From: Clostridia bacterium | GTDB lineage: Bacteria > Bacillota > Clostridia > Oscillospirales > Acutalibacteraceae | Reading direction: 5' to 3' | Assembly (NCBI GenBank): GCA_017559885.1 | Contig: JAFYQN010000160.1 | Location: forward strand, 1-28,334 | Length of the DNA stretch: 28,334 bases | Notes under the pieces: generated by a model | What the model was told of the DNA's origin: nothing | Seen by the model: the letters and a program-made list of their open reading frames with translations, nothing else | Database searches by the model: none | Program-made: the position numbers and the translations under genes | Shown: one piece after another, positions 9,473-21,335 of the stretch | How positions within the stretch are numbered: position 1 is the first letter of the stretch | How the letters are laid out: each line of letters starts with the position of its first letter

Positions 9473-10156
9473 TTACCCCTTTCTGAACCATTGTAATATG
9501 AGTATGGAAACAAACATCCTCATCATATAATTGGTTGCGTTTGAAAAGTTAAGATAACTTTGCCCTGCTACACGGTCGTGCATTTCTACCTGAATTTCAC
9601 TATACGTTGCGCCACCGCGCACAAGCAACGCTACCGTATCGGGTTCGGGTCCCAAATCGGTGGCAAAGGCAAGTTTTTTAATCATTTTTTTATCAAACAT
9701 ACGCATTCCTGACGTTGGGTCTTTTATCGTTTTACCCGTTGTCAATTTTATTGAAAGTTGTATGAGATTGCTACCCAACATACGAAGAGATACAGGTTTC
9801 TTTTTGTCAACAAAACGAGAACCTATTACTATGTTGTATCCCTTTTCCATCTCGCATGCCATATTATAAACGTAATCGGGGTCGTGTTGTCCGTCGCCGT
9901 CAAACTGTATAGCGGCATCATAACCGTTGTTATGGGCAAAAATCATACCCGTTTGCACCGCCGCGGCAAGACCAAGGTTTACTGGGTGACTTACATAATG
10001 ATAACCCTTTGCTTTGCAAATTGCTTCGGTATTGTCGGTAGAACCGTCGTTTACAATAATATAATCGTACTGTGGACAGTCTTTTTTAACGGTGTCAATT
10101 ACCCGTTCAATATTATCTTGTTCGTTGTATGCCGGAATAATAAGAAGAACGTTCAT
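9473..10156 (-). CDS. GT2 family polyprenyl-phosphate glycosyltransferase (DPM1/GacI-like)
   Basis: IIPAYNE, VNDGSTD, NLGLAAAVQTG, QFDGDGQHD (DxD), GSRF, DPTSGMR; start ATG 10156 with SD AAGGAG. Confidence 0.9.
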   Translation of the reverse strand: MNVLLIIPAYNEQDNIERVIDTVKKDCPQYDYIIVNDGSTDNTEAICKAKGYHYVSHPVNLGLAAAVQTGMIFAHNNGYDAAIQFDGDGQHDPDYVYNMACEMEKGYNIVIGSRFVDKKKPVSLRMLGSNLIQLSIKLTTGKTIKDPTSGMRMFDKKMIKKLAFATDLGPEPDTVALLVRGGATYSEIQVEMHDRVAGQSYLNFSNATNYMMRMFVSILILQWFRKG

Positions 10157-10170
10157 CTTATGGCTCCTTT

Positions 10171-11331
10171 TTATTTCACTAAACTTTCCAATTTTTTTGC
10201 AGTTGTTTCCCAGGTAAAGTCCTGTATTAAGCGTTGATAACATTTTTGTGTTGCGGCAAGGCGATAATCCTTGTCGGAAATCGCTTTTTGTAACGCCTGC
10301 GCGATTTTAGGCACCGCGTTATCGTTGATTAAAATACCCATACTATCATCGGTAATGAGTTCCTTTGCGCCGCCGACAGTTGTAGTTACAACAAAGTTTT
10401 TAAGCGCTACCGCCTCAAGAATAGAGGTGGGCAAACCTTCGGGATATACCGTAGGTAAGCAAAATATATCCGCCTCGCAAAGCAACGCTACAATGTGATT
10501 AAAATCAATTTTGCCAAGCATAATTATTCTATCGTTTTGGTCGGATACGGTTTTGATTTTTTCGCTTTGCTCTCCCTCGCCCGCAATAATTAAATATGCG
10601 TTACTGTCGCCCAAACTGTGAAACGCTTTTGCCAATTCGTAAGAGCCCTTTTCTTTAACGAGGCGACCTGTGTAGGTTATAACCGTCGCGTCTTTTGGTA
10701 TATTATACTCTTTTCTATAAGAAATTGTGTTTTCTTTTTCTAACTGTTTTATGTTATCAATGTCTATTGCGTTATAAAGCATACCCTTTGATTTAATTCC
10801 AAAATGTCCGCTCCAATCACACGCCGCTTGCGATACGCCGTAATAATCTTTACAGTATTTTTTTAGCACCCTCGTAAGACAGTGTTCGTAAATTGCGCCA
10901 AAAAAGTCCAACACTTTATTGTTGACCGACAAATGACTTGAACCGTGTTCGATGGTTATTGACGGAATATTGTTTTTATACGCAAATTTTGCCGCGTATA
11001 CGCTATGAATATAAAATCTTGCGTTTATAACCGCGATATCAAAATGCTTTTGACTAAGTTTTTTATCAAGTTCTTTAAATTCTTGGTTTTTCTTTAAGAT
11101 GGGATATCTGCCCTTCATAACGTTATAACAGGGCATACGGAAAATTTCTACCCCTTCGTTTGAAACCTCGTATCCAGGCAAATCAAAAACGTTAGAAGTA
11201 ACTATGGTTACGTCGTGACCAAAAGATACAAGTTGTTTCGCAAGATTATTTACGTATCTTTCAACGCCACCAAGGTTTGGTAAATAGTTTGCGCAAAACA
11301 AACAAATTGATTTTTTCATTTTTTCCACCAT
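10171..11331 (-). CDS. GT4 family (GT-B fold) glycosyltransferase
   Basis: YLPNLGGVERY, YTGRLVKEKG, IIAGEG, EGLPTSILEA (EX7E). Confidence 0.92.
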   Translation of the reverse strand: MVEKMKKSICLFCANYLPNLGGVERYVNNLAKQLVSFGHDVTIVTSNVFDLPGYEVSNEGVEIFRMPCYNVMKGRYPILKKNQEFKELDKKLSQKHFDIAVINARFYIHSVYAAKFAYKNNIPSITIEHGSSHLSVNNKVLDFFGAIYEHCLTRVLKKYCKDYYGVSQAACDWSGHFGIKSKGMLYNAIDIDNIKQLEKENTISYRKEYNIPKDATVITYTGRLVKEKGSYELAKAFHSLGDSNAYLIIAGEGEQSEKIKTVSDQNDRIIMLGKIDFNHIVALLCEADIFCLPTVYPEGLPTSILEAVALKNFVVTTTVGGAKELITDDSMGILINDNAVPKIAQALQKAISDKDYRLAATQKCYQRLIQDFTWETTAKKLESLVK

Positions 11332-14300
11332 TTATAACATTATTGTTACGATTTTTGAATAGATTTCAAGCATTACTACCGCCGACATTATCGCAAATAT
11401 TACACAACTGTATGCCGCCTTGTTTTTAAATATATTAAATCTTTTACCTGTAACAAGTAGCAACAGCGGCGCTAAAAGCGGTGTTAGATATCGCGGTTGA
11501 CAACCGTTTATGGTCGTAGCATTAAGCGGTGTAAAGTTTATATATAGCGCTGTAGCTATTACCGATGCCATACCAACAAAAAGCAATACCGCTAACCCTC
11601 TGATATAAAGGGGCGTTTTAAATCCGTATCGCTTGTTTGTGTCGGTCAAAGCGGTGAAACCTAATACTATTGCGGCAATAAACCAGTATTTTCCAAGTCC
11701 CAAATATCCAAAGTGAGAAATATATTCCTGCATACTGCCGATTGATAGATAGTCTAATAAAAACTTAAACAACAACTTTGCATAACCAAACGGAGCCGAG
11801 CGTATGCCTGCTAATTGAGCCGAGGGGTTTACGTCGCCGCCTCTAATATCTCCGGGTCCGCCAATTTTTGTTAGGGTTGTTATAACAAAGTATGCAACCA
11901 ACACCGAGAAAATGGTTACCAAAACGGCGTAGTAAGTACGTCGGTCGCTCTTTCTTGGCCAATTTTTCCTCATAAACAAGGTCATACCCATAAGAATAAT
12001 GTATACAAGTTTTGGCCAAGCGCCTACGGTAAACGACAATGCCATTATGATTGTGTCGGTAATTGTTATGGGTTTTTCGGGTTGTTGTAACTCGCTTACA
12101 AAATACGCCGTACCAAGCATTGTAAATGCCGTAACGCACCAGTCGTACGAGTAATTGGTTGCCAAAAATAGATTTGTTGGGAATAGACATATTACCGCAA
12201 GTATCATTTTACCCGTTTTGAGTTTCTTTATGGCAAAATAGCATACAAAGGAATACACCAACAAATACGCAAGTCTTCCGACGTTATACTTGACTGCAAA
12301 ACTTGCACCAAAAAATCTTGCCACTGCGATAAAAATTCCCGCAGGAATATGCGCGATTGATATATACGACTGTTGTTGCGCAACCAACGTTTCGTCTGCC
12401 GAATTAAGATATTCCAAATCTTCGTTGTATTTTTCGAGCGAAAAATCTACCAAACTTGTGCTTTGGCCAAGATGTTTGTCAACATTGTAGTCCGCGCCCG
12501 TTATGTACGCCGTATCCATATACGATGCCTGCACCGCCCAAGGATAGTGTGAGTCCAAATCCCACGCGATGTGTTTTATGGGTGAGCATAACAACATTAC
12601 AACGCCCAAAGTAAGCGCTATTGGTAAAAATACGTTTTCGGTCTTTTCGCGTAAATATTTACGTCCGCGTATAAAGACAACTACAAGTTCTGCAATACCT
12701 GCAAAAAATACAAATCTATATTTGTTAAAATCTCCCGGCAAGATACGGCTTATTATCATTTCAACAAGCATACCGCCAAGAATTGCCACTGCCGAAAATA
12801 CTATAAATTCGGCAATTTTTATTTTGTTTCGGGCAATTGTTCTAACTACTGCTTGGGTTGCCCACGTGCGTTTGTCAATAGCTCTTACAATAAGCGCAAT
12901 TATTACAGGGATTGCTATCGCTTTAAAATAATCGCCTGCCGTTTTTTCGACCTCAAAGGGCACCGACTCGGGTTGCGTTTCGTAAAGACCTACGTTTTTA
13001 AAGTAGATATCGTTTGTGTCGATATCAATACGCAAAAAATCGTACGAACCTTTTGGTATGTCTATAATAACGCTTGTTTCATCCTTAAATATACTGCTTG
13101 AGTAACATCTTTCCGCGCTAAATTGTCCGTCTTTGTATGCGGTATAAACTTCGATTGCAACTTCACCAACAGGTTGCTGGATAGCCACCTCTACACACTC
13201 TATTTCCCTGCCTTCGCAAGAAAAGATTATTTGTGGGTCAACGTCTGTTATTGTATATTTTCCCGATGCCTCTACCCTGCAACTGCGAAACGATTCGATT
13301 TGTGAAATCGATAAATTCTCAACAGGGTAACCAACCGGTTTTAAAACATTGCCAACGTTTTTAGGCAAAAAGATTGATACGCACACCAACAGTGACAACG
13401 CAAACGAAAGAACTGTTGCCACTATGGTATATCTTTCTTTTTTGATAACTTCGTCCAACAGGTCTACTTGTGGTTTTTTTAACTGCAATAAAAACAGTGA
13501 GAACATAACCGCAAAAAGCACTGCCATTTCACAAAGGTATGATAGCGCCGCGCCTGTAAGTCCCCAACGCGAAACCATTGCATCGGGCGCAACAAGAGCA
13601 AAAAGCATTGTCACAACATAAGCAATAAGACATAATTTTTGCTTGCGCATTGTGGTAAATAAAGTTAATGTCAAGGTGCTTGCCGCGCTTAATCCGCCTG
13701 CAAATAAAAGCGTTATAAATATTGTCTTTTTATCTGAAAGTTCGGCTTTGTATAACATTTCAAGTACGGGTATGCCCAGAAAATACCCCGCAACCATTGC
13801 CGCGATTGTTAAAACGACTACCCAACCGTAAAGTTTTGATACAATCTTTTTAAACTCGTCTATACGGTTTTCTGCCCAACTTTTAGAAAGTTTTATAAGT
13901 TGCGGACGAAAAGCAAAAATGCTTAAAAGGTTTATTGCAAACACAGGCATTACAAGATATCCGTAATGCGCTTGGTCGGTTTTGGTTAGCGCGTTTTCAA
14001 TTGCGTATTTAGGCGAATTAAAAATAAACTGATGCATAAACGACGATGCAAAAAGCGGTAACGCGCACAACAAAATACCCTTTTGCTCGGAAAGTTTAAA
14101 CGACGGTTTAAACGACCCAAAATTGTTGCTTAGCGGTATATCGTGCAATAAAATCCAAACCAAAACAACTATCGGCATGGTAAGCGTCGCGATAAAAAGT
14201 TGCTTTGTTATAACAAGCGTTATCGAAAATACAATTGCCGTAATAGCCGTTTGACACGCAAGCGACCTACCCGCAATGCTTAAATAACCGTTTCTGTGAA

Positions 14301-14709
14301 GGTTGCCTTGGAACAAATCAGAAATTGCCGCAAGCATCATATAAACCGAAATAACAAGCATAACCTTTACGGTTTCCTTATCAAAACCTTTAAAGGTAGC
14401 AAACGCGCCAAAAAATGCCCACATTGCCGCTATGGTAATAACTCTAAACATCGAAATGCTTTCAAACGACATCTCGCGTTTTGCGTCGGTTACCTGAATG
14501 TTACGCATTTCAAAAACGCAAATGGTATACATCATTTGCGCGGTTGAATACGCAAGCGAAAAAACACCTGCCGCATCGCTTCCTACGATATGACTTACGA
14601 CAATCATCAACAACAACGACACAGTAGCATTGGTTAAGCTACCCAGCATATTAAATATAAAATTTTTCTTTTCTGAAGTTTGTGGTAATCTATAAGCAAA
14701 TTTTTTCAT
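11332..14709 (-). CDS. Fusion protein: Wzx-type flippase + extracytoplasmic beta-rich domain + DUF2142 (GT-C-like) membrane domain
   Basis: Residues about 1-410 form a 12-14 TM Wzx pattern (NFIFNMLGSL, GVFSLAYS, FIFNSPKYAI, WGLTGAALS); soluble segment at about 13360-12930; C-terminal multi-TM domain with WDLDSHY, NLFLATNYSYDW, GCQPRYLTP resembling DUF2142; start ATG 14709 with SD GAGGTG. Confidence 0.75.
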   Translation of the reverse strand: MKKFAYRLPQTSEKKNFIFNMLGSLTNATVSLLLMIVVSHIVGSDAAGVFSLAYSTAQMMYTICVFEMRNIQVTDAKREMSFESISMFRVITIAAMWAFFGAFATFKGFDKETVKVMLVISVYMMLAAISDLFQGNLHRNGYLSIAGRSLACQTAITAIVFSITLVITKQLFIATLTMPIVVLVWILLHDIPLSNNFGSFKPSFKLSEQKGILLCALPLFASSFMHQFIFNSPKYAIENALTKTDQAHYGYLVMPVFAINLLSIFAFRPQLIKLSKSWAENRIDEFKKIVSKLYGWVVVLTIAAMVAGYFLGIPVLEMLYKAELSDKKTIFITLLFAGGLSAASTLTLTLFTTMRKQKLCLIAYVVTMLFALVAPDAMVSRWGLTGAALSYLCEMAVLFAVMFSLFLLQLKKPQVDLLDEVIKKERYTIVATVLSFALSLLVCVSIFLPKNVGNVLKPVGYPVENLSISQIESFRSCRVEASGKYTITDVDPQIIFSCEGREIECVEVAIQQPVGEVAIEVYTAYKDGQFSAERCYSSSIFKDETSVIIDIPKGSYDFLRIDIDTNDIYFKNVGLYETQPESVPFEVEKTAGDYFKAIAIPVIIALIVRAIDKRTWATQAVVRTIARNKIKIAEFIVFSAVAILGGMLVEMIISRILPGDFNKYRFVFFAGIAELVVVFIRGRKYLREKTENVFLPIALTLGVVMLLCSPIKHIAWDLDSHYPWAVQASYMDTAYITGADYNVDKHLGQSTSLVDFSLEKYNEDLEYLNSADETLVAQQQSYISIAHIPAGIFIAVARFFGASFAVKYNVGRLAYLLVYSFVCYFAIKKLKTGKMILAVICLFPTNLFLATNYSYDWCVTAFTMLGTAYFVSELQQPEKPITITDTIIMALSFTVGAWPKLVYIILMGMTLFMRKNWPRKSDRRTYYAVLVTIFSVLVAYFVITTLTKIGGPGDIRGGDVNPSAQLAGIRSAPFGYAKLLFKFLLDYLSIGSMQEYISHFGYLGLGKYWFIAAIVLGFTALTDTNKRYGFKTPLYIRGLAVLLFVGMASVIATALYINFTPLNATTINGCQPRYLTPLLAPLLLLVTGKRFNIFKNKAAYSCVIFAIMSAVVMLEIYSKIVTIML

Positions 14710-14745
14710 ACGCACCTCTTCTAACCGCACGCTATAATTCATTTT

Positions 14746-14774
14746 ATTATACCACATATAATTGCTTTTTTCAA
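14746..14774 (-). promoter_or_regulatory. Sigma-A-type promoter for the flippase/GT-C-GT4-GT2-DUF2304 operon
   Basis: Minus strand TTGAAA (14774-14769), 17 bp, TATAAT (14751-14746), with extended -10 TG. Confidence 0.82.
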
Positions 14775-14798: not shown

Positions 14799-14827
14799 TT
14801 GACAAAACAATCAATATTAGTTATAAT
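14799..14827 (+). promoter_or_regulatory. Perfect-consensus sigma-A promoter for the licD-cytidylyltransferase/PLP enzyme-opine dehydrogenase operon
   Basis: TTGACA (14799-14804), 17 bp, TATAAT (14822-14827). Confidence 0.88.
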
Positions 14828-14860
14828 TATTATGTATGAACTTTATTGGAGATGATTGTT

Positions 14861-15718
14861 TTGTCAGGTCAATACGAGCCCGAAGTTTTAAAAAAATTAC
14901 AACTTTGCGAACTTGAAATTTTAAAAGATTTTATAACCGTTTGCAAAGAAAACAATCTTACCTATTTTGGTTTTGGCGGTACCGGTATCGGCGCTTTGCG
15001 ACACGGCGGTTTTATACCGTGGGATGACGACATTGACCTTGCTGTTCCGCGTGACGACTATAACACCGCTATGGAAATATTCCGTCGCGATTTTGCCGAC
15101 AAATACACCGTTGTTAACGCGCAAAATTATAATGATTTTCCCGTTATGAACACCCACATTATAATCAACGACTCAAAGTTTGTTACAAAAGAAGAACTTG
15201 GCGCAAAATATCCAAAAGGTATTTTTCTTGATATATTCCCCGTCGACAACGTGCCCGACGACCCAAAGGAGCGCGACAAACATCTTAAAAAGACGTGGAT
15301 TTTAAGCAAAATATTTATTATGAAACATATCCCGTTTCCACACGTGCCTTTTAAAGGTGCAACCGCAAAACTTGCCCACTGTGTAACGGCGATGATTTGG
15401 TTGTTTTTAAACGTTTTTTGCGTTTCGCATAAATTTTTATACAAACTTTGCTTTAACCAATGCGTCAAATACAACAACACCGACACCAACTACTACGCGT
15501 ATTGTTGCGGTTCAAAGTTGTGCGGCAACGTTTTTGATAAAAAGCAACTTTACCCGTTAAAAGATATTGATTTCGAAAATATTCCAATCTCTTTTCCAAA
15601 TAATTTAGATGACATCTTAACTGCAGAATACGGCAATTTTATGCAGATACCCCCTCCCGAAAAGCAAAAAAATCACCGTCCCGAAATTTTAGTTTTTCCA
15701 AATGAACAAAACAAATAA
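14861..15718 (+). CDS. LicD family phosphotransferase (CDP-alcohol-phosphate to glycan)
   Basis: LQLCELEIL, GTGIGALRHGGFIPWDDDIDL, IFLDIFPVD, LTAEYGNFMQIPP; likely start TTG 14861 after SD GGAGATGAT (ORF track starts at 14846). Confidence 0.92.
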   Translation: MSGQYEPEVLKKLQLCELEILKDFITVCKENNLTYFGFGGTGIGALRHGGFIPWDDDIDLAVPRDDYNTAMEIFRRDFADKYTVVNAQNYNDFPVMNTHIIINDSKFVTKEELGAKYPKGIFLDIFPVDNVPDDPKERDKHLKKTWILSKIFIMKHIPFPHVPFKGATAKLAHCVTAMIWLFLNVFCVSHKFLYKLCFNQCVKYNNTDTNYYAYCCGSKLCGNVFDKKQLYPLKDIDFENIPISFPNNLDDILTAEYGNFMQIPPPEKQKNHRPEILVFPNEQNK

Positions 15719-15730
15719 AGGAGCGTCAAT

Positions 15731-17539
15731 ATGCAAGCACTTATTTTAGCGGCAGGAATGGGCAAACGCCTTAAAGAACTAACCCAAGACAACACCAAAT
15801 GTATGGTTAAAATTAACGGCGTTACGTTAATAGAGCGTATGCTTCGTCAGATAGATAAGCACAACCTTTCAAAAATTGTTATTGTTATTGGTTACGAAGG
15901 CCAAAAACTTATCGACTATATCGCTACGCTTAAAAATATTAAAACCCCTATCGTATACGTGAATAATCCTATATACGACAAAACAAACAACATCTATTCT
16001 CTTTCTCTTGCGCAGGATTATCTTTGCGAAGAAGATACCCTTTTGTTTGAATCGGATCTTATTTTTGAGGATAGCATTATCGATTTATTACTCAACGACC
16101 CTCGCCCATCGCTTGCGCTTGTTGACAAGTACGAAAGTTGGATGGATGGCACCTGTCTTAAAATTGACGAGCAAGATAATATTACCGCCTTTATTCCGGG
16201 CAAAAACTTTAAATACAGCGAAAAAGACGAGTACTACAAAACCGTAAATATTTATAAGTTTAGTAAAAACTTTTCAAAAAACAGTTATGTTCCTTTCCTT
16301 AACGCTTATATAAAGGCGCTTGGCGAAAACGAATATTATGAACAGGTTCTTCGCGTTATCACAATGCTTGATAACCCCGAAATAAAAGCAGAGCGCCTTA
16401 CAGGTCAACTTTGGTACGAAACCGATGATATTCAAGACCTTGATATCGCGTCCTCTATGTTCCACCCTGACGATGACGAAAAAGTTGCCGCTTTACAGCG
16501 CAGGTTTGGCGGATATTGGCGCTATCCTAAATTGCTTGATTTTTGCTATCTTGTAAACCCATATTTTCCACCGCAACGACTTATGGACGAAATCAAAGCG
16601 AATTTTGAAACGCTTATAACCCAGTATCCAAGCGGTATGGGTGTAAACTCACTTCTTGCGGCAAAGAATTTTGATATTCATCAGCAAAACATTGTCGTAG
16701 GTAACGGCGCCGCCGAACTTATTAAATCGTTTATGGAAATGCAAAACGGAAAAATTGGTTTTGCGCGTCCTACTTTTGAGGAATATCCAAACCGTTACAC
16801 AAAAGAAAACTCGGTTGTTTTTGTGCCAAGCAACAAGGATTTTTCATATAGCGCCGACGATTTAATGGAATTTTTTGGCGATAAAGACATTAAAACACTT
16901 GTGGTTATTAATCCCGATAACCCATCAGGCAACTATATTCCAAAGCGTGACCTTTTACGTCTTGTTGATTGGTCAAAAGAAAAGGGTGTAAAACTTGTTA
17001 TTGATGAATCGTTTGTTGATTTTTCAGTTTGTGAAGATTCTACAATCATATTGCAGGACGTTTTAGATAATAACAAACATCTCTATGTTGTAAAAAGCAT
17101 TTCAAAATCTTATGGCGTACCCGGTATTCGCCTTGGTATACTTGCAAGCGGTGACGTCGAAACCATTGCCGTTATTAAAAAAGACGTTGCAATCTGGAAC
17201 ATAAACTCCTTTGGCGAATTTTATATGCAGATTGCCGAAAAGTATAAAAAAGATTATGCCCAAGCGCTTGTTAAATTCCGCGATGAACGTAACCGTTTCT
17301 TAAACGAACTAAATGCAATCAAAGGCATTCGCGTTATTCCTTCGCAGGCAAACTACTTTATGGTAGAACTTACCGGCGGTATTACAGCAAAAGAACTTAC
17401 CAAAAAAATGCTTATAATATACGATATACTTATAAAAGACCTCTCAACAAAGGTAGATGGTCAGTATATTAGAATTGCGATTCGTTCAAAAGAAGACAAT
17501 GACCGATTAATCGACGCGTTTAAAGCAGAAATTTTTTAA
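15731..17539 (+). CDS. Bifunctional LicC/PntC-like cytidylyltransferase + HisC/CobD-like class I/II PLP enzyme
   Basis: N-terminus ALILAAGMGKRL, TNNIYSL, ESDLIF, WYETDDIQDL; C-terminus LLDFCYLVNPYFP, GNGAAELI, NPDNPSG, IDESF, SISKSYGVPGIRLG (PLP Lys). Confidence 0.85.
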   Translation: MQALILAAGMGKRLKELTQDNTKCMVKINGVTLIERMLRQIDKHNLSKIVIVIGYEGQKLIDYIATLKNIKTPIVYVNNPIYDKTNNIYSLSLAQDYLCEEDTLLFESDLIFEDSIIDLLLNDPRPSLALVDKYESWMDGTCLKIDEQDNITAFIPGKNFKYSEKDEYYKTVNIYKFSKNFSKNSYVPFLNAYIKALGENEYYEQVLRVITMLDNPEIKAERLTGQLWYETDDIQDLDIASSMFHPDDDEKVAALQRRFGGYWRYPKLLDFCYLVNPYFPPQRLMDEIKANFETLITQYPSGMGVNSLLAAKNFDIHQQNIVVGNGAAELIKSFMEMQNGKIGFARPTFEEYPNRYTKENSVVFVPSNKDFSYSADDLMEFFGDKDIKTLVVINPDNPSGNYIPKRDLLRLVDWSKEKGVKLVIDESFVDFSVCEDSTIILQDVLDNNKHLYVVKSISKSYGVPGIRLGILASGDVETIAVIKKDVAIWNINSFGEFYMQIAEKYKKDYAQALVKFRDERNRFLNELNAIKGIRVIPSQANYFMVELTGGITAKELTKKMLIIYDILIKDLSTKVDGQYIRIAIRSKEDNDRLIDAFKAEIF

Positions 17540-17557
17540 TTCCGAAGGGATAAAAAG

Positions 17558-18637
17558 ATGAACATTACTATTGTTGGCGCAGGAAATATTGGCACACAAA
17601 TCGCCGTTCACTGCGCATCAAAAGGGCATAAAGTAATAATTTATACTTCAAAGTGCGACCTGTTTTCCAAAGATTTAAAAATAGTCAACGAACTTGGCGA
17701 AACCTTTTTAAGCGGTGAAATTGATTGCGCTACTTGTGATGCACCTCACGCTTTTTGTAATGCTGACCTTGTTTTTGTAACCGTTCCTGCCTTTTATATG
17801 CAAGACACTGCCAAAGTTATGTCACCACATTTAAAACGCGGCGCCAAAATATGCTTGGTGCCTGGTACGGGAGGCGGTGAATTTGCCTTTAAAGATGCCA
17901 TAGATAACGGTTGCGTATTGTTTGGTTTGCAACGCGTGCCAAGTGTTGCGCGACTTGTAGAGTATGGCAAAACAGTGTGCGCTACGGGCTATCGCGACGA
18001 GTTGTTCGCGGCGGCAATCCCCGACTCTTTTTCGAGTGAGTGCGCCAAGATTATAGCAAGCATTTTTGATATGAAATGTAGCGAATTGCCGTCATATCTT
18101 AATATAACGCTCACGCCGTCAAATCCTATTTTGCACACAACCCGACTAAAAACTATTTTTGGCGATTACACCGATGGTAAAACATACGATAGCGTACCGC
18201 TTTTTTATGAGGGATGGACCGACGAGTCCTCTCGACTTTTGCTTGCGTGTGACGACGAAGTGCAAAATATTTGTAAAGCGCTTGATATGTTTAATTTATC
18301 TTTTGTGAAATCTTTAAAAATTCACTACGAAAGCGAAAATGCCGAGCAACTAACAAACAAAATAACAAGCATTAAAAGTTTTAAAGGACTTAAAACCCCA
18401 AGCGTTAAGACCGCAGACGGCTACGCTCCCGATTTGAACTCGCGTTATTTTACCGCAGATTTTTCTTACGGACTTGAAATTCTTATTCAGATTGCCGATT
18501 TTTTAAATTTGCCTTGTCCTTTTATGAAATCTACTATGGACTGGTACAATAAAATCGCGCTGCAAAAAAACCGTTTTTGTTTTGCCGATTACGGTATAAA
18601 TAATCTTGATGATTTTATAAATTTTTATCAACAATAA
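17558..18637 (+). CDS. NAD(P)-dependent opine (octopine/nopaline-type) dehydrogenase family protein
   Basis: Rossmann ITIVGAGNIG, SNPILHTTRL, PLFYEGW, SRYFTADFSYGL (Octopine_DH-like C-terminal motif); 359 aa. Confidence 0.8.
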   Translation: MNITIVGAGNIGTQIAVHCASKGHKVIIYTSKCDLFSKDLKIVNELGETFLSGEIDCATCDAPHAFCNADLVFVTVPAFYMQDTAKVMSPHLKRGAKICLVPGTGGGEFAFKDAIDNGCVLFGLQRVPSVARLVEYGKTVCATGYRDELFAAAIPDSFSSECAKIIASIFDMKCSELPSYLNITLTPSNPILHTTRLKTIFGDYTDGKTYDSVPLFYEGWTDESSRLLLACDDEVQNICKALDMFNLSFVKSLKIHYESENAEQLTNKITSIKSFKGLKTPSVKTADGYAPDLNSRYFTADFSYGLEILIQIADFLNLPCPFMKSTMDWYNKIALQKNRFCFADYGINNLDDFINFYQQ

Positions 18638-18677
18638 AAATTACCCCGAATCACAAACGTGACTCGGGGTGTTTTTT
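18636..18677. terminator. Bidirectional intrinsic terminator between convergent genes
   Basis: ACCCCGA-A-TCAC-AAAC-GTGA-C-TCGGGGT stem (18643-18670), A-run on the left and T-run on the right. Confidence 0.85.
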
Positions 18678-19745: not shown

Positions 19746-21335
19746 TTATGCTGCCGGTTCTTGCTCTGTTGGTTGTGATTCGGGGTCTTCACTCGATGTG
19801 GATTCTTCACTGCTTGAAGATTCATCGTCCGACGAATCTTGTTCGTCAGAAGTATCATCCGAGGTTGTATCTCCCGACGAGGTTTCTTCGTCCTCGCTTG
19901 TGGTGTCATCGCTTGATGTGTCGTCACTCGAGGTATCGTCGCTTGACGTGTCGTCACTTGACGTGTCGTCAGGTTGCTCGCTCTCTATTGGTTCTTCGCT
20001 TGAATTTTGCTGTTGCGATGAGTTTGACGGATAACGTTTTCCGCCCATATCGCTATACCAATCGTTGTTTTCTATGGGATTTTCTTCAATAAACTGTTCG
20101 ATTGTTACGTCGTCATATATAACCGCGTTAATAAGTTTTTCGGCGTAATCAAGGTCGTAATAAATTACCGAGCCGTATCCCGATGGAGCCGTCATCAAAA
20201 AGTCGCTTTGGTATTCTGACGGTGGCAAACGATACTGTTCAAAAGACGGCGAGCCCAGTAGCACGCTTGTTGCAAGACTGAGTATGTCGCCATAAGAAAG
20301 TGAGGTTTCAGTGCATGGAATAAGCGCCTTGATAAGTTCGGGATATTGCGATTTGCTCATTGAGGTTGCCTTGTTAAATAGTCCTTGCATAACGTGGCGT
20401 TGACGATCGGTACGACCATAGTCGTTGTTGGTGCCCCAAACATTGCGACAATAACGCACACGCGAATAAGCAACCGCTTGAACACCGTTAAGAACGTGGT
20501 CGCCTGCGGTATGAATGTAATAATCTTTAGGGTCAAGACCCATCTCTTTACATATTTCATCCATACAGTTGTTAAGATTTGGTCGGTCGTTACCCTTCCA
20601 GGTAAGTTCATCTTGAGTTATGGTGGCAGGGATACCGCCAACCGCGTCAATTATATCTACCATTCCGTAGAAATTAACGGTTGCATACTCGGATATATCC
20701 AAACCAAACGCCTGATTTAAAGTTTTAATTGCGTGCTCGGGACCTTTTGTGTACGCCGAGTTAATCTTGCCAAAATAACTTTTTCCTTCATACTCCATAG
20801 GAACAAGGGTGTCACGCATAATAGAAAAGATTTTTATCTTTTTGGTCTTGGTATTAATACTTAAAATCATAATACTGTCGGTGTTGCCGCTAAAAATTTC
20901 TTCGTCGCGTGAGTCAACACCAAAAAGCGCTACGTTAACAACGTTTTTATCTATTATGTCGGTGTAACCAAGGTCACCTGAAATATCGCGATGATTAAGT
21001 CCAAAAAGGGCAATAATCGCCGAGAATATTGGCGATAAGATTGGCGCTATAAATATAACAAACGCAAGAATCAGCGCAATAAGCGATGTTGCAGAAATAC
21101 TTACAAAAGCGATTTTTTTACCGCTTGTAAGAGCGTTCCACCAACCCTTGATGCCGCGAGATTTTTTCTTGTATACACTATTTGAACTTATATCTTCAAA
21201 TTTAATATTGCCGTCTTGATAACTTGAATCCGAAACGATATCTTCATAAGTTTCTTCATCCTTTTTTTGCATTGCGGCGATAATATCTTCGTATTTTTCG
21301 TTAAAATTTAAATCAAAATTATCCTTTTTATCCAT
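19746..21335 (-). CDS. LCP (LytR-CpsA-Psr) family glycopolymer-peptidoglycan phosphotransferase with acidic Ser/Thr/Asp tail
   Basis: TM helix, ALFGVDSR, GNTDSIMI, SIMRDT, KINSAY, LNGVQAVAYSRVR, DYGRTDRQR. Confidence 0.93.
   Translation of the reverse strand: MDKKDNFDLNFNEKYEDIIAAMQKKDEETYEDIVSDSSYQDGNIKFEDISSNSVYKKKSRGIKGWWNALTSGKKIAFVSISATSLIALILAFVIFIAPILSPIFSAIIALFGLNHRDISGDLGYTDIIDKNVVNVALFGVDSRDEEIFSGNTDSIMILSINTKTKKIKIFSIMRDTLVPMEYEGKSYFGKINSAYTKGPEHAIKTLNQAFGLDISEYATVNFYGMVDIIDAVGGIPATITQDELTWKGNDRPNLNNCMDEICKEMGLDPKDYYIHTAGDHVLNGVQAVAYSRVRYCRNVWGTNNDYGRTDRQRHVMQGLFNKATSMSKSQYPELIKALIPCTETSLSYGDILSLATSVLLGSPSFEQYRLPPSEYQSDFLMTAPSGYGSVIYYDLDYAEKLINAVIYDDVTIEQFIEENPIENNDWYSDMGGKRYPSNSSQQQNSSEEPIESEQPDDTSSDDTSSDDTSSDDTSSDDTTSEDEETSSGDTTSDDTSDEQDSSDDESSSSEESTSSEDPESQPTEQEPAA
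19903..19971 (-). repeat. Degenerate 15-bp tandem repeat (about 4.6 copies) encoding (DDTSS)n in the LCP tail
   Basis: Plus-strand units GTGTCATCGCTTGAT, GTGTCGTCACTCGAG, GTATCGTCGCTTGAC, GTGTCGTCACTTGAC, GTGTCGTCA. Confidence 0.85.

What the first reader, a model, noticed from the sequence alone, without database searches (positions are those of the whole stretch)
14861..18637. LicD + cytidylyltransferase/PLP enzyme + opine dehydrogenase: predicted route to an opine-phosphate glycan substituent
Seen: a three-gene operon with no LicA kinase or LicB transporter and no PEP mutase, so neither choline salvage nor phosphonate synthesis is encoded here. Known: HisC/CobD-fold enzymes can decarboxylate phospho-amino acids or aminate DHAP (Campylobacter capsule enzymes Cj1436/Cj1437 give ethanolamine-P and serinol-P); LicC-type domains make CDP-aminoalcohols; opine dehydrogenases reductively condense an amine with pyruvate or 2-oxoglutarate. 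Inferred pathway: phosphoserine to ethanolamine-P (or DHAP to serinol-P), then CDP activation, N-carboxyethylation and LicD transfer. From recall, 2-[(R)-1-carboxyethylamino]ethyl phosphate is a described substituent of a Proteus mirabilis O-antigen, and I know of no established biosynthetic route for it; this triad is a plausible one. The product would be a zwitterionic, phosphocholine-like surface group with possible immune or phage-receptor relevance.
Basis: partly seen in the sequence, partly recalled or inferred. Interest (0 to 1): 0.88.

Follow-up and report, generated by a model that had tools for sequence, protein, structure and literature searches.

The report
Opine-type tailoring of phospho-aminoethyl glycan decoration
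A gut Clostridia-like bacterium carries a compact three-gene operon, widespread in gut and rumen microbes but never studied, that most likely makes CDP-activated phosphoethanolamine, adds a carboxyalkyl group to its amine with an opine-dehydrogenase-type enzyme, and attaches the product to a cell-wall sugar polymer.

Summary
The operon is licD (14846-15718), a LicC-like cytidylyltransferase fused to a CobD-like PLP enzyme (15731-17539), and an Octopine_DH-family dehydrogenase (17558-18637). It has a perfect sigma-70 promoter and a strong terminator.

The dehydrogenase looks like a true opine dehydrogenase. Its four nearest solved structures are all opine dehydrogenases (Z 28-37). The catalytic His/Arg/Asp triad is invariant in 84 of 84 relatives.

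Relatives occur in at least 308 species genomes. In 53 of 84 loci the fusion gene lies next to the dehydrogenase. Elsewhere the same orthologous dehydrogenase sits beside other supply modules:
- a choline/ethanolamine-kinase fusion with a permease;
- an aminoethylphosphonate-type ABC importer;
- a complete aminoethylphosphonate synthesis operon.

All of these routes supply a 2-aminoethyl-phosph(on)ate, so that is the likely amine substrate. Natural dehydrogenase::LicD and cytidylyltransferase::dehydrogenase fusions tie the steps together.

The 2-oxo acid, the order of steps and the Proteus link remain untested. The only Proteus homologue I found lies in a siderophore cluster. I could not obtain pneumococcal Gtp1-3 sequences to test that rival. 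No paper in the library describes the cassette. This scan has already noted it several times on other DNA.

The parts
14799..14827 (+). sigma-70-type promoter of the three-gene operon (TTGACA-17-TATAAT)
   Evidence: 12 of 12 consensus matches. It lies back to back with an 11/12 promoter on the minus strand (14774-14746) for the Wzx/DUF2142 gene.
14846..15718 (+). licD: LicD-family phospho-head-group transferase (alternative starts ATG 14852, TTG 14861)
   Evidence: PF04991, E 7.5e-42, profile positions 1-227 of 227. It is the only LicD in the genome.
15731..16480 (+). N-terminal LicC/PntC-like cytidylyltransferase domain of the fusion (residues 1-250)
   Evidence: PF12804 and PF00483. Matches PDB 6pd1 (PntC fusion, 8e-17) and 1jyk (LicC, 4.5e-10). 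Signature LAAGMGKRL...TKCMV.
16520..17539 (+). C-terminal CobD/HisC-fold PLP domain of the fusion (residues 264-602), probable phosphoserine decarboxylase
   Evidence: TIGR01140 CobD, 167 bits. Best PDB match is 6oux, 'threonine phosphate decarboxylase-like enzyme', E 7e-47. The Schiff-base lysine in SISKSYGVPGIRLG aligns with the CobD and 6oux lysines.
17558..18637 (+). opine-dehydrogenase-family NAD(P)H enzyme
   Evidence: PF02317, E 2e-30. H193/R296/D301 align with OcDH H212/R324/D329 and are invariant in 84 of 84 sequences. The model has pLDDT 92, and the nearest structures are CENDH, OcDH, pseudopaline DH and staphylopine DH at Z 28-37.
18643..18670 (.). hairpin terminator shared with the convergent acyltransferase gene
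   Evidence: 12-pair stem with 7 G-C pairs and T-runs on both sides.
9473..14757 (-). probable acceptor-glycan machinery (inferred): GT2, GT4 and a 1141-aa membrane protein with a DUF2142 domain, divergently transcribed
   Evidence: PF00535, PF00534/PF13439 and PF09913. The link to the operon rests only on adjacency and the shared promoter region.
19746..21335 (-). LCP-family glycopolymer-to-peptidoglycan ligase (context)
   Evidence: PF03816, E 6.7e-35; TIGR00350 over its cut-off.

Best explanation
The operon makes and transfers an N-carboxyalkylated 2-aminoethyl phosphate head group.

Step 1 (inferred from homology): the PLP domain decarboxylates L-serine O-phosphate, made by the genome's own SerC, to ethanolamine phosphate.

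Step 2 (inferred): the fused LicC/PntC-like domain uses CTP to make CDP-ethanolamine. The order of steps 1 and 2 could be reversed, as I recall for FrbH, which would give CDP-serine first.

Step 3 (inferred from fold, catalytic residues and gene context): the opine-dehydrogenase-family enzyme reductively condenses the free amine with a 2-oxo acid and NAD(P)H. The 2-oxo acid could be pyruvate, glyoxylate or 2-oxoglutarate. The amine could be on ethanolamine phosphate, on its CDP form, or possibly on the already transferred group. The result is an N-(1-carboxyalkyl)aminoethyl phosphate.

Step 4 (inferred): LicD transfers the phospho-head group from the CDP donor to a wall glycopolymer. That polymer is built by the adjacent glycosyltransferases and anchored by the LCP ligase.

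Directly shown here: the domain identities, the conserved catalytic residues, the operon signals and the conserved gene neighbourhoods. No chemistry is shown.
For: - Domains and motifs.
- The dehydrogenase belongs structurally and by sequence with true opine dehydrogenases. The top four structural matches have Z 28-37, against 24 or less for ketopantoate reductases. The catalytic His, Asp and 2-oxo-acid-binding Arg are invariant in 84 of 84 sequences.
- Two further invariant arginines, R126 and R196, replace Thr and Ile of octopine dehydrogenase. They could bind a phosph(on)ate (inference).
- The fusion is adjacent to the dehydrogenase in 53 of 84 loci.
- The same orthologous dehydrogenase sits in four supply contexts, and these are interleaved on the tree, with at least 11 forced changes of context. 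The other three contexts are: LicD plus a cytidylyltransferase::choline/ethanolamine-kinase fusion plus an APC permease (Blautia wexlerae); LicD plus a PhnS2/PhnU2-like importer whose permease is fused to a nucleotidyltransferase; and a full LicD-ODH-Ppd-AEPT-Ppm-PntC operon.
- The only feature the four routes share is a primary amine on a 2-aminoethyl-phosph(on)ate.
- Natural fusions exist: ODH::LicD and NTP::ODH.
- SerC is present. No kinase or PEP mutase was found in the genome.
Against: - There are no biochemical data for any member.
- The PLP domain scores below the CobD equivalog cut-off (167 against 290 bits) and could be an aminotransferase.
- 19 of 84 loci have the dehydrogenase without recognisable partners within 10 kb, some among housekeeping genes.
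- The 2-oxo acid and the exact amine substrate are unknown.
- I could not obtain pneumococcal Gtp1-3 sequences, so I cannot exclude that a homologous set has been assigned a different chemistry (CDP-2-glycerol).
- The genome is 86% complete, so the absence of a kinase or PEP mutase is not proven.
Confidence: 0.5

Rival explanations
1. The PLP domain is an aminotransferase rather than a decarboxylase. It would aminate dihydroxyacetone phosphate to serinol phosphate (Cj1437-like), so the head group would be CDP-serinol, with or without opine-type tailoring.
For: HisC-type aminotransferase models score nearly as well as CobD (144 against 167 bits). Sequence alone does not separate the two activities within this fold.
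Against: The best solved match by a wide margin is a CobD-type decarboxylase-like enzyme (6oux, 164 bits, against 110 or less for the others). The alternative supply modules found with the same dehydrogenase deliver two-carbon aminoethyl compounds, not serinol: an AEP pathway, an AEP-type importer and a choline/ethanolamine-type kinase.
Confidence: 0.15
2. The Octopine_DH-family protein is a plain ketoreductase. In this reading it would resemble pneumococcal Gtp1, which I recall as a dihydroxyacetone reductase of the CDP-2-glycerol pathway. The cassette would then deliver unmodified phosphoethanolamine or a glycerol-type phosphate.
For: In the pneumococcus the order wchX-gtp1-gtp2-gtp3 places a 'glycerol-2-phosphate dehydrogenase', a nucleotidyl transferase and a phosphotransferase next to a phosphotransferase gene. 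This resembles the LicD-ODH-NTP order in L115 and the kinase context in L032. The wider fold superfamily includes ketoreductases. An earlier first-reader note (e1-4095484) asserts that the domain families are the same.
Against: The 2-oxo-acid-binding Arg and the His-Asp dyad of opine dehydrogenases are invariant, and all four nearest structures make C-N bonds. The operon here has no kinase, and its PLP lysine is intact, which a glycerol route does not need. No streptococcal protein appears among the 120 best homologues of either dehydrogenase query. The Gtp domain families could not be verified because Wang 2010 is not held.
Confidence: 0.12
3. The dehydrogenase is not part of the head-group pathway. 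It would make a soluble opine-like metabolite (osmolyte, redox sink or metallophore part) and merely share an operon with the glycan genes.
For: About a fifth of relatives are solitary or in unrelated contexts. Distant family members in Proteus and rhizobia sit in siderophore-type or PALP-linked clusters.
Against: The dehydrogenase is tightly coupled within operons to cytidylyltransferase and LicD genes in most loci across phyla. Physical fusions to LicD and to a nucleotidyltransferase exist. No exporter or metallophore genes lie in this window.
Confidence: 0.08

Closest known systems
Lic phosphocholine pathway (LicA kinase, LicC cytidylyltransferase, LicD transferase) of Streptococcus pneumoniae and Haemophilus
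   Same: Both use a CDP-activated amino-alcohol phosphate made by a LicC-type enzyme and transferred to a glycan by LicD. The N-terminal domain matches LicC (1jyk) and LicD matches over its full length.
   Different: This operon has no kinase and no choline uptake. The phospho-amine is probably made de novo by a fused PLP enzyme. There is an extra dehydrogenase step that needs a free amine, which choline lacks.
Phosphonyl tailoring pathway (Ppm, Ppd, AEPT, PntC plus LicD-like transferases; Rice et al. 2019, PMC6697681)
   Same: Both use a PntC/LicC-type cytidylyltransferase fused to a partner enzyme (6pd1), and both pass CMP/CDP-activated 2-aminoethyl-P head groups to LicD-like enzymes. Orthologues of this dehydrogenase sit inside complete Ppm operons (L051).
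   Different: This genome has no PEP mutase, so the head group is a phosphate ester, not a phosphonate. That paper does not describe a dehydrogenase step.
FrbH of FR-900098 biosynthesis (Streptomyces rubellomurinus)
   Same: The architecture is the same: a nucleotidyltransferase fused to a PLP decarboxylase acting on an amino-phosph(on)o acid. The cytidylyltransfer activity is cited in PMC6697681; the decarboxylase half is from my recall of Johannes et al. 2010.
   Different: FrbH belongs to secondary metabolism and acts on 2-amino-4-phosphonobutyrate. FrbH has no LicD or opine-dehydrogenase partners.
CobD and SMUL_1544-type threonine/serine phosphate decarboxylases (PDB 1lc5, 6oux)
   Same: Same fold and same PLP lysine motif. 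6oux is the best solved match (E 7e-47). Its molecule name equals the SMUL_1544 annotation, and SMUL_1544 governs norcobamide synthesis (title cited). Norcobamides carry an ethanolamine phosphate linker (my knowledge).
   Different: The domain here is below the CobD equivalog cut-off, is fused to a cytidylyltransferase, and lies in a glycan context rather than a cobamide context.
Opine dehydrogenases: octopine DH (3c7a), CENDH (1bg6), pseudopaline and staphylopine DH (6c4n, 6gmz)
   Same: Same fold (Z 28-37) and same catalytic His/Arg/Asp triad.
   Different: Identity is only 10-24%. The known enzymes use amino acids or nicotianamine-like amines. Here the context points to a phospho- or phosphono-amine, possibly nucleotide-linked, and two family-specific invariant arginines are present.
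N-[(R)-1-carboxyethyl]ethanolamine phosphate substituent of Proteus mirabilis O-polysaccharide
   Same: It is the predicted product class. The substituent is documented in PMC9630907.
   Different: No genes are assigned to it (PMC5560731). The Proteus homologue I found lies in a siderophore-type cluster. No O14 genome was available, so the link is untested.

Membership tests
Opine dehydrogenase family (Pfam Octopine_DH, PF02317) | N-terminal Rossmann NAD(P)-binding domain with a glycine-rich loop, plus the C-terminal helical Octopine_DH domain | tested here: met
   PF02317 E 2.2e-30 and PF01210 E 8e-10. G7, G9 and N10 are conserved in 82 of 84 sequences. Z is 36.9 to CENDH and 31.6 to OcDH over 331-348 residues.
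Opine dehydrogenase family (Pfam Octopine_DH, PF02317) | Catalytic His-Asp dyad and the Arg that binds the 2-oxo acid carboxylate (OcDH H212, D329, R324; residue roles from my knowledge of Smits et al. 2008) | tested here: met
   These residues align with H193, D301 and R296, which are invariant in 84 of 84 sequences.
Opine dehydrogenase family (Pfam Octopine_DH, PF02317) | NAD(P)H-dependent reductive condensation of an amine with a 2-oxo acid | not testable with these tools
   This needs an enzyme assay.
LicD phosphotransferase family (PF04991) | Full-length match to the LicD domain over the curated cut-off | tested here: met
   144.4 bits against a cut-off of 22.6, profile positions 1-227 of 227.
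LicD phosphotransferase family (PF04991) | Transfer of a phospho-alcohol from a CDP donor to a glycan | not testable with these tools
   Only context supports it: glycosyltransferases, a flippase-like membrane protein and an LCP ligase lie nearby.
LicC/PntC-type cytidylyltransferases | GXG(T/S)RX4-8PK signature (PMC6697681) | tested here: met
   The sequence G9-M-G-K-R13...T22-K23 keeps the Gly loop, the Arg and the terminal Lys, with K in place of T/S and T in place of P. LAAGMG(K/R)RL occurs in 47 hits across the 52 fusion loci. PDB matches are 6pd1 (8e-17) and 1jyk (4.5e-10).
CobD threonine-phosphate decarboxylase (TIGR01140 equivalog) | Score over the equivalog cut-off | tested here: not met
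   166.9 bits against a cut-off of 290.55. It is a relative, not an equivalog.
CobD threonine-phosphate decarboxylase (TIGR01140 equivalog) | PLP Schiff-base lysine in the S-x-(S/T)-K motif | tested here: met
   SISKSYGVPGIRLG aligns with CobD SLTKFYAIPGLRLG and 6oux SLSKDFGIAGVRLG. The motif is found in 48 of 52 fusion loci.
Pneumococcal CDP-2-glycerol pathway (WchX, Gtp1, Gtp2, Gtp3) | Homology of the dehydrogenase to Gtp1 and of the PLP domain to Gtp3 | not testable with these tools
   No pneumococcal type 23F or 15 sequence could be fetched, and Wang 2010 is not held. Published product names are 'glycerol-2-phosphate dehydrogenase', 'nucleotidyl transferase' and 'phosphotransferase'. No streptococcal hits appear.
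Pneumococcal CDP-2-glycerol pathway (WchX, Gtp1, Gtp2, Gtp3) | A phosphotransferase or kinase step that creates the phosphate ester | tested here: not met
   There is no kinase domain in the operon or window and no choline-kinase family gene in the genome.

The most novel reading that the evidence does not exclude
The cassette encodes the first biosynthetic route to 'phospho-opine' glycan decorations. In this reading, an opine dehydrogenase accepts ethanolamine phosphate or aminoethylphosphonate, free or CDP/CMP-linked, as its amine. This would be a new substrate class for the family. It would give many gut and rumen bacteria an N-carboxyalkyl-aminoethyl-phosph(on)ate surface group, the class known chemically from a Proteus O-antigen but without assigned genes.
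Probability: 0.45. Interest if true: 0.75.

Novelty: new variant of a known kind. Interest (0 to 1): 0.6.

Why it matters
Small charged head groups on wall polymers, such as phosphocholine, phosphoethanolamine and aminoethylphosphonate, shape immune recognition, phage adsorption and resistance to cationic peptides.

If the prediction holds, a very common gene set encodes a further, chemically distinct head group that turns a cationic amine into a carboxylate-bearing secondary amine. The fusion protein alone has more than 8000 relatives in the protein database. The dehydrogenase occurs in at least 308 species genomes across Bacillota, Spirochaetota, Saccharibacteria and other phyla.

The prediction would also assign genes to a substituent class so far known only from structural chemistry. 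It would extend opine dehydrogenase chemistry to phospho(no)-amines.

The module varies between close relatives: only 2 of 24 congeners carry the dehydrogenase. It also crosses phylum boundaries on the tree. Both patterns are typical of surface-variation genes.

Tried and rejected
1. Pneumococcal Gtp1-3 comparison. Wang 2010 (PMC2950487) is not held and the Bentley 2006 supplements are not held. Two 400-genome samples of the class around an Erysipelotrichaceae genome gave no Streptococcus handle. The last homologue search, with the L115 dehydrogenase, listed no streptococcal protein. This rival stays unresolved.

2. Proteus link. A plasmid-collection tblastn found two P. mirabilis chromosomes mis-filed as plasmids. 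Their Octopine_DH gene lies in a cluster of IucA/IucC, TonB receptor, PLP decarboxylase, PALP enzyme and MFS transporter. That is siderophore-type and irrelevant to the O-antigen. Rhizobial plasmid hits are PALP plus ODH pairs of another subfamily.

3. Phosphonate reading for this genome. Rejected: no PEP mutase was found, though the genome is only 86% complete.

4. Choline salvage for this genome. Rejected: no choline kinase was found.

5. Copies at 22% identity in two complete Bacilli-class genomes (L108-L110) have none of the partner genes. They belong to another subfamily and were set aside.

6. Model coordinates are not exposed, so I could not check whether R126 and R196 line the active site.

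7. Literature searches for opine or octopine dehydrogenase together with LicD, phosphoethanolamine, cytidylyltransferase or AEP found nothing.

Full report
**Observation.** The window is chromosomal DNA near the replication origin (mnmE, mnmG, rsmG, parB). It comes from a 1.44-Mb, 86%-complete metagenome-assembled genome of a Clostridia-like bacterium.
- LicD, 14846-15718: PF04991, E 7.5e-42, full profile length.
- A 602-aa fusion, 15731-17539: a nucleotidyltransferase domain (PF12804/PF00483) joined to a class I/II PLP-fold domain. The best NCBIfam hit is CobD threonine-phosphate decarboxylase, 167 bits, below its 290-bit cut-off.
- An Octopine_DH-family protein, 17558-18637: PF02317, E 2.2e-30.

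A perfect TTGACA-17-TATAAT promoter lies at 14799-14827. A strong hairpin with T-runs on both strands lies at 18643-18670. The three genes therefore form a clean transcription unit.

**The enzymes.**
- The cytidylyltransferase domain carries a LicC/PntC-type signature (LAAGMGKRL...TK). It matches the PntC fusion 6pd1 and LicC 1jyk.
- The PLP domain keeps the Schiff-base lysine in SISKSYGVPGIRLG, which aligns with the lysines of CobD and 6oux. 6oux is by far its best solved match (E 7e-47).
- The 6oux molecule name, 'threonine phosphate decarboxylase-like enzyme', equals the annotation of SMUL_1544. That gene governs norcobamide synthesis (title cited). I recall that this enzyme decarboxylates serine phosphate to ethanolamine phosphate, but I could not read that paper.
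- The genome encodes SerC, the source of phosphoserine.
- In the dehydrogenase, OcDH residues H212, R324 and D329 align with H193, R296 and D301. These three are invariant in all 84 relatives examined.
- An AlphaFold model (pLDDT 92) is closest to CENDH (Z 36.9), octopine dehydrogenase (31.6), pseudopaline dehydrogenase (30.1) and staphylopine dehydrogenase (28.1). Ketopantoate reductases follow at Z 24 or less. All four nearest structures catalyse amine plus 2-oxo acid condensation.
- Two more invariant arginines, R126 and R196, stand where octopine dehydrogenase has Thr and Ile. They could bind an anionic phosph(on)ate.

**Distribution and context.**
- The fusion protein has more than 8000 database relatives, typically 72-90% identical.
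- The dehydrogenase has relatives in 308 species genomes. These include Lachnospiraceae, Oscillospiraceae, Christensenellaceae, Erysipelotrichaceae, Spirochaetota, Saccharibacteria, Melainabacteria and Planctomycetota.
- In 84 loci, the fusion is adjacent to the dehydrogenase in 53, usually within 50 bp. LicD lies within 10 kb in 32 of those 53.
- The association persists at 33% dehydrogenase identity (L116).

The other loci are the most informative part. The same dehydrogenase recurs with three further supply modules:
- *Kinase type.* In Blautia wexlerae the order is Wzx, LicD, nucleotidyltransferase, dehydrogenase, a cytidylyltransferase::choline/ethanolamine-kinase fusion, then an APC permease.
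- *Importer type.* In L115 the order is TagF-like, Wzx, LicD, dehydrogenase, nucleotidyltransferase, then an ABC importer. The importer's binding protein and permease are most similar to the putative 2-aminoethylphosphonate transporter PhnS2/PhnU2. Its permease is fused to a second nucleotidyltransferase.
- *AEP synthesis type.* In L051 the dehydrogenase lies inside a complete operon: LicD, dehydrogenase, phosphonopyruvate decarboxylase, class-V aminotransferase, cytidylyltransferase::PEP mutase, PntC-like transferase. L081 has the same PEP-mutase motif.

On a maximum-likelihood tree of the dehydrogenases these contexts are interleaved. Well-supported branches force at least 11 changes of the 'fusion' label, and the five kinase-type rows are all separate. 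One orthologous enzyme therefore serves interchangeable supply modules. What those modules share is a 2-aminoethyl-phosphate or 2-aminoethyl-phosphonate with a free primary amine. Natural fusions reinforce the link: a 71-member cluster of Octopine_DH::LicD proteins and a 626-aa nucleotidyltransferase::Octopine_DH protein.

About a fifth of the loci show the dehydrogenase alone or beside other wall genes. The association is strong but not universal.

Within the window's own genus only 2 of 24 other species have a homologue. The tree crosses phylum boundaries. Both patterns fit a mobile, variable surface-decoration module.

**Mechanism.** I propose four steps:
1. The PLP domain decarboxylates phosphoserine to ethanolamine phosphate.
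2. The fused domain activates it with CTP. The order of steps 1 and 2 may be reversed, as I recall for FrbH; its cytidylyltransfer to an amino-phosphonate acid is cited in PMC6697681.
3. The dehydrogenase reductively alkylates the amine with a 2-oxo acid.
4. LicD transfers the phospho-head group to a polymer made by the neighbouring GT2, GT4 and DUF2142-containing membrane protein, and the LCP enzyme anchors it.

All four steps are inferences from homology and context.

**Rivals.**
- *Serinol phosphate through transamination.* This cannot be excluded by sequence, but it fits the alternative aminoethyl supply modules poorly.
- *A Gtp1-like ketoreductase reading.* It conflicts with the invariant opine-type triad and with the absence of any kinase. 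I could not fetch the pneumococcal sequences or the primary paper, so it remains open at low probability.
- *An unrelated soluble-opine role.* The fusions and operon coupling argue against it.

**Comparison with what is known.** The cassette works like the Lic and Pnt head-group pathways, with two differences: a de novo PLP-dependent supply step fused to the activating enzyme, and an added opine-type tailoring step.

The predicted product class, N-(1-carboxyethyl)ethanolamine phosphate, is documented on a Proteus mirabilis O-polysaccharide (PMC9630907). No genes are assigned to it (PMC5560731). The only Proteus homologue I could reach is in a siderophore-type cluster, so that link is untested.

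Full-text searches found no paper that joins opine or octopine dehydrogenase with LicD, phosphoethanolamine, cytidylyltransferase or aminoethylphosphonate.

Earlier agents of this scan reached similar readings for the same cassette on other DNA, including Akkermansia, Bacteroidales and a phosphonate operon. I re-derived the AEP-operon context and the LicD fusion independently.

**Verdict.** This is a real, widespread and uncharacterised variant of CDP/CMP head-group decoration. There is good comparative support for an opine-type modification of a 2-aminoethyl-phosph(on)ate. The exact product is unknown, and there is no biochemistry yet.

Noticed in passing
window 11332-14757 (-): A single 1141-aa ORF has a DUF2142 domain at residues 784-1095 behind a long polytopic N-terminal part. 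It is divergently transcribed from the licD operon and shares its promoter region. Another first-reader note reads it as a Wzx::DUF2142 fusion.
   Followed up: no
L016 and L021 (dehydrogenase at 10001-11077 in both): The dehydrogenases of a Clostridia MAG (L016) and of the cultured spirochaete Bullifex porci (L021) are nearly identical, with branch lengths of about 0.03. This points to very recent transfer between phyla, or to a mis-binned contig.
   Followed up: no
L117 (NZ_OL790811.1 837437-866501): Two 4.08-Mb Proteus mirabilis chromosomes are filed as plasmids in the plasmid collection. They carry an Octopine_DH-family gene in a cluster of IucA/IucC, TonB receptor, Orn/Arg-type decarboxylase, PALP enzyme and MFS transporter, which is a siderophore-type locus.
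   Followed up: partly
L075 11101-15374: Directly after the LicD, fusion and dehydrogenase triad come a second nucleotidyltransferase with a roughly 75-aa N-terminal extension, an Amidohydro_3 enzyme and a cytidylyltransferase::choline-kinase fusion. One locus may therefore encode two head-group routes. L063 and L071 look alike in the tblastn map.
   Followed up: partly
L035 5402-9500 and L076: Here the dehydrogenase follows a sulfatase-family membrane protein (LtaS/Ept-like) and a 677-aa YidC (60KD_IMP)::TagF-like fusion. This is an unusual architecture.
   Followed up: no
G001:C50:5814-6281 (L104): Erysipelotrichaceae bacterium NK3D112 has a second Octopine_DH-family copy interrupted by one in-frame TAG.
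   Followed up: no
L004/L019 9085-10359: In a Saccharibacteria-labelled MAG the triad is followed directly by a DUF1015 gene. Its role is unknown.
   Followed up: no
L115 12714-15311: An 865-aa protein fuses a PhnU2-like double ABC permease to a nucleotidyltransferase, so the importer is physically coupled to the activating enzyme.
   Followed up: partly
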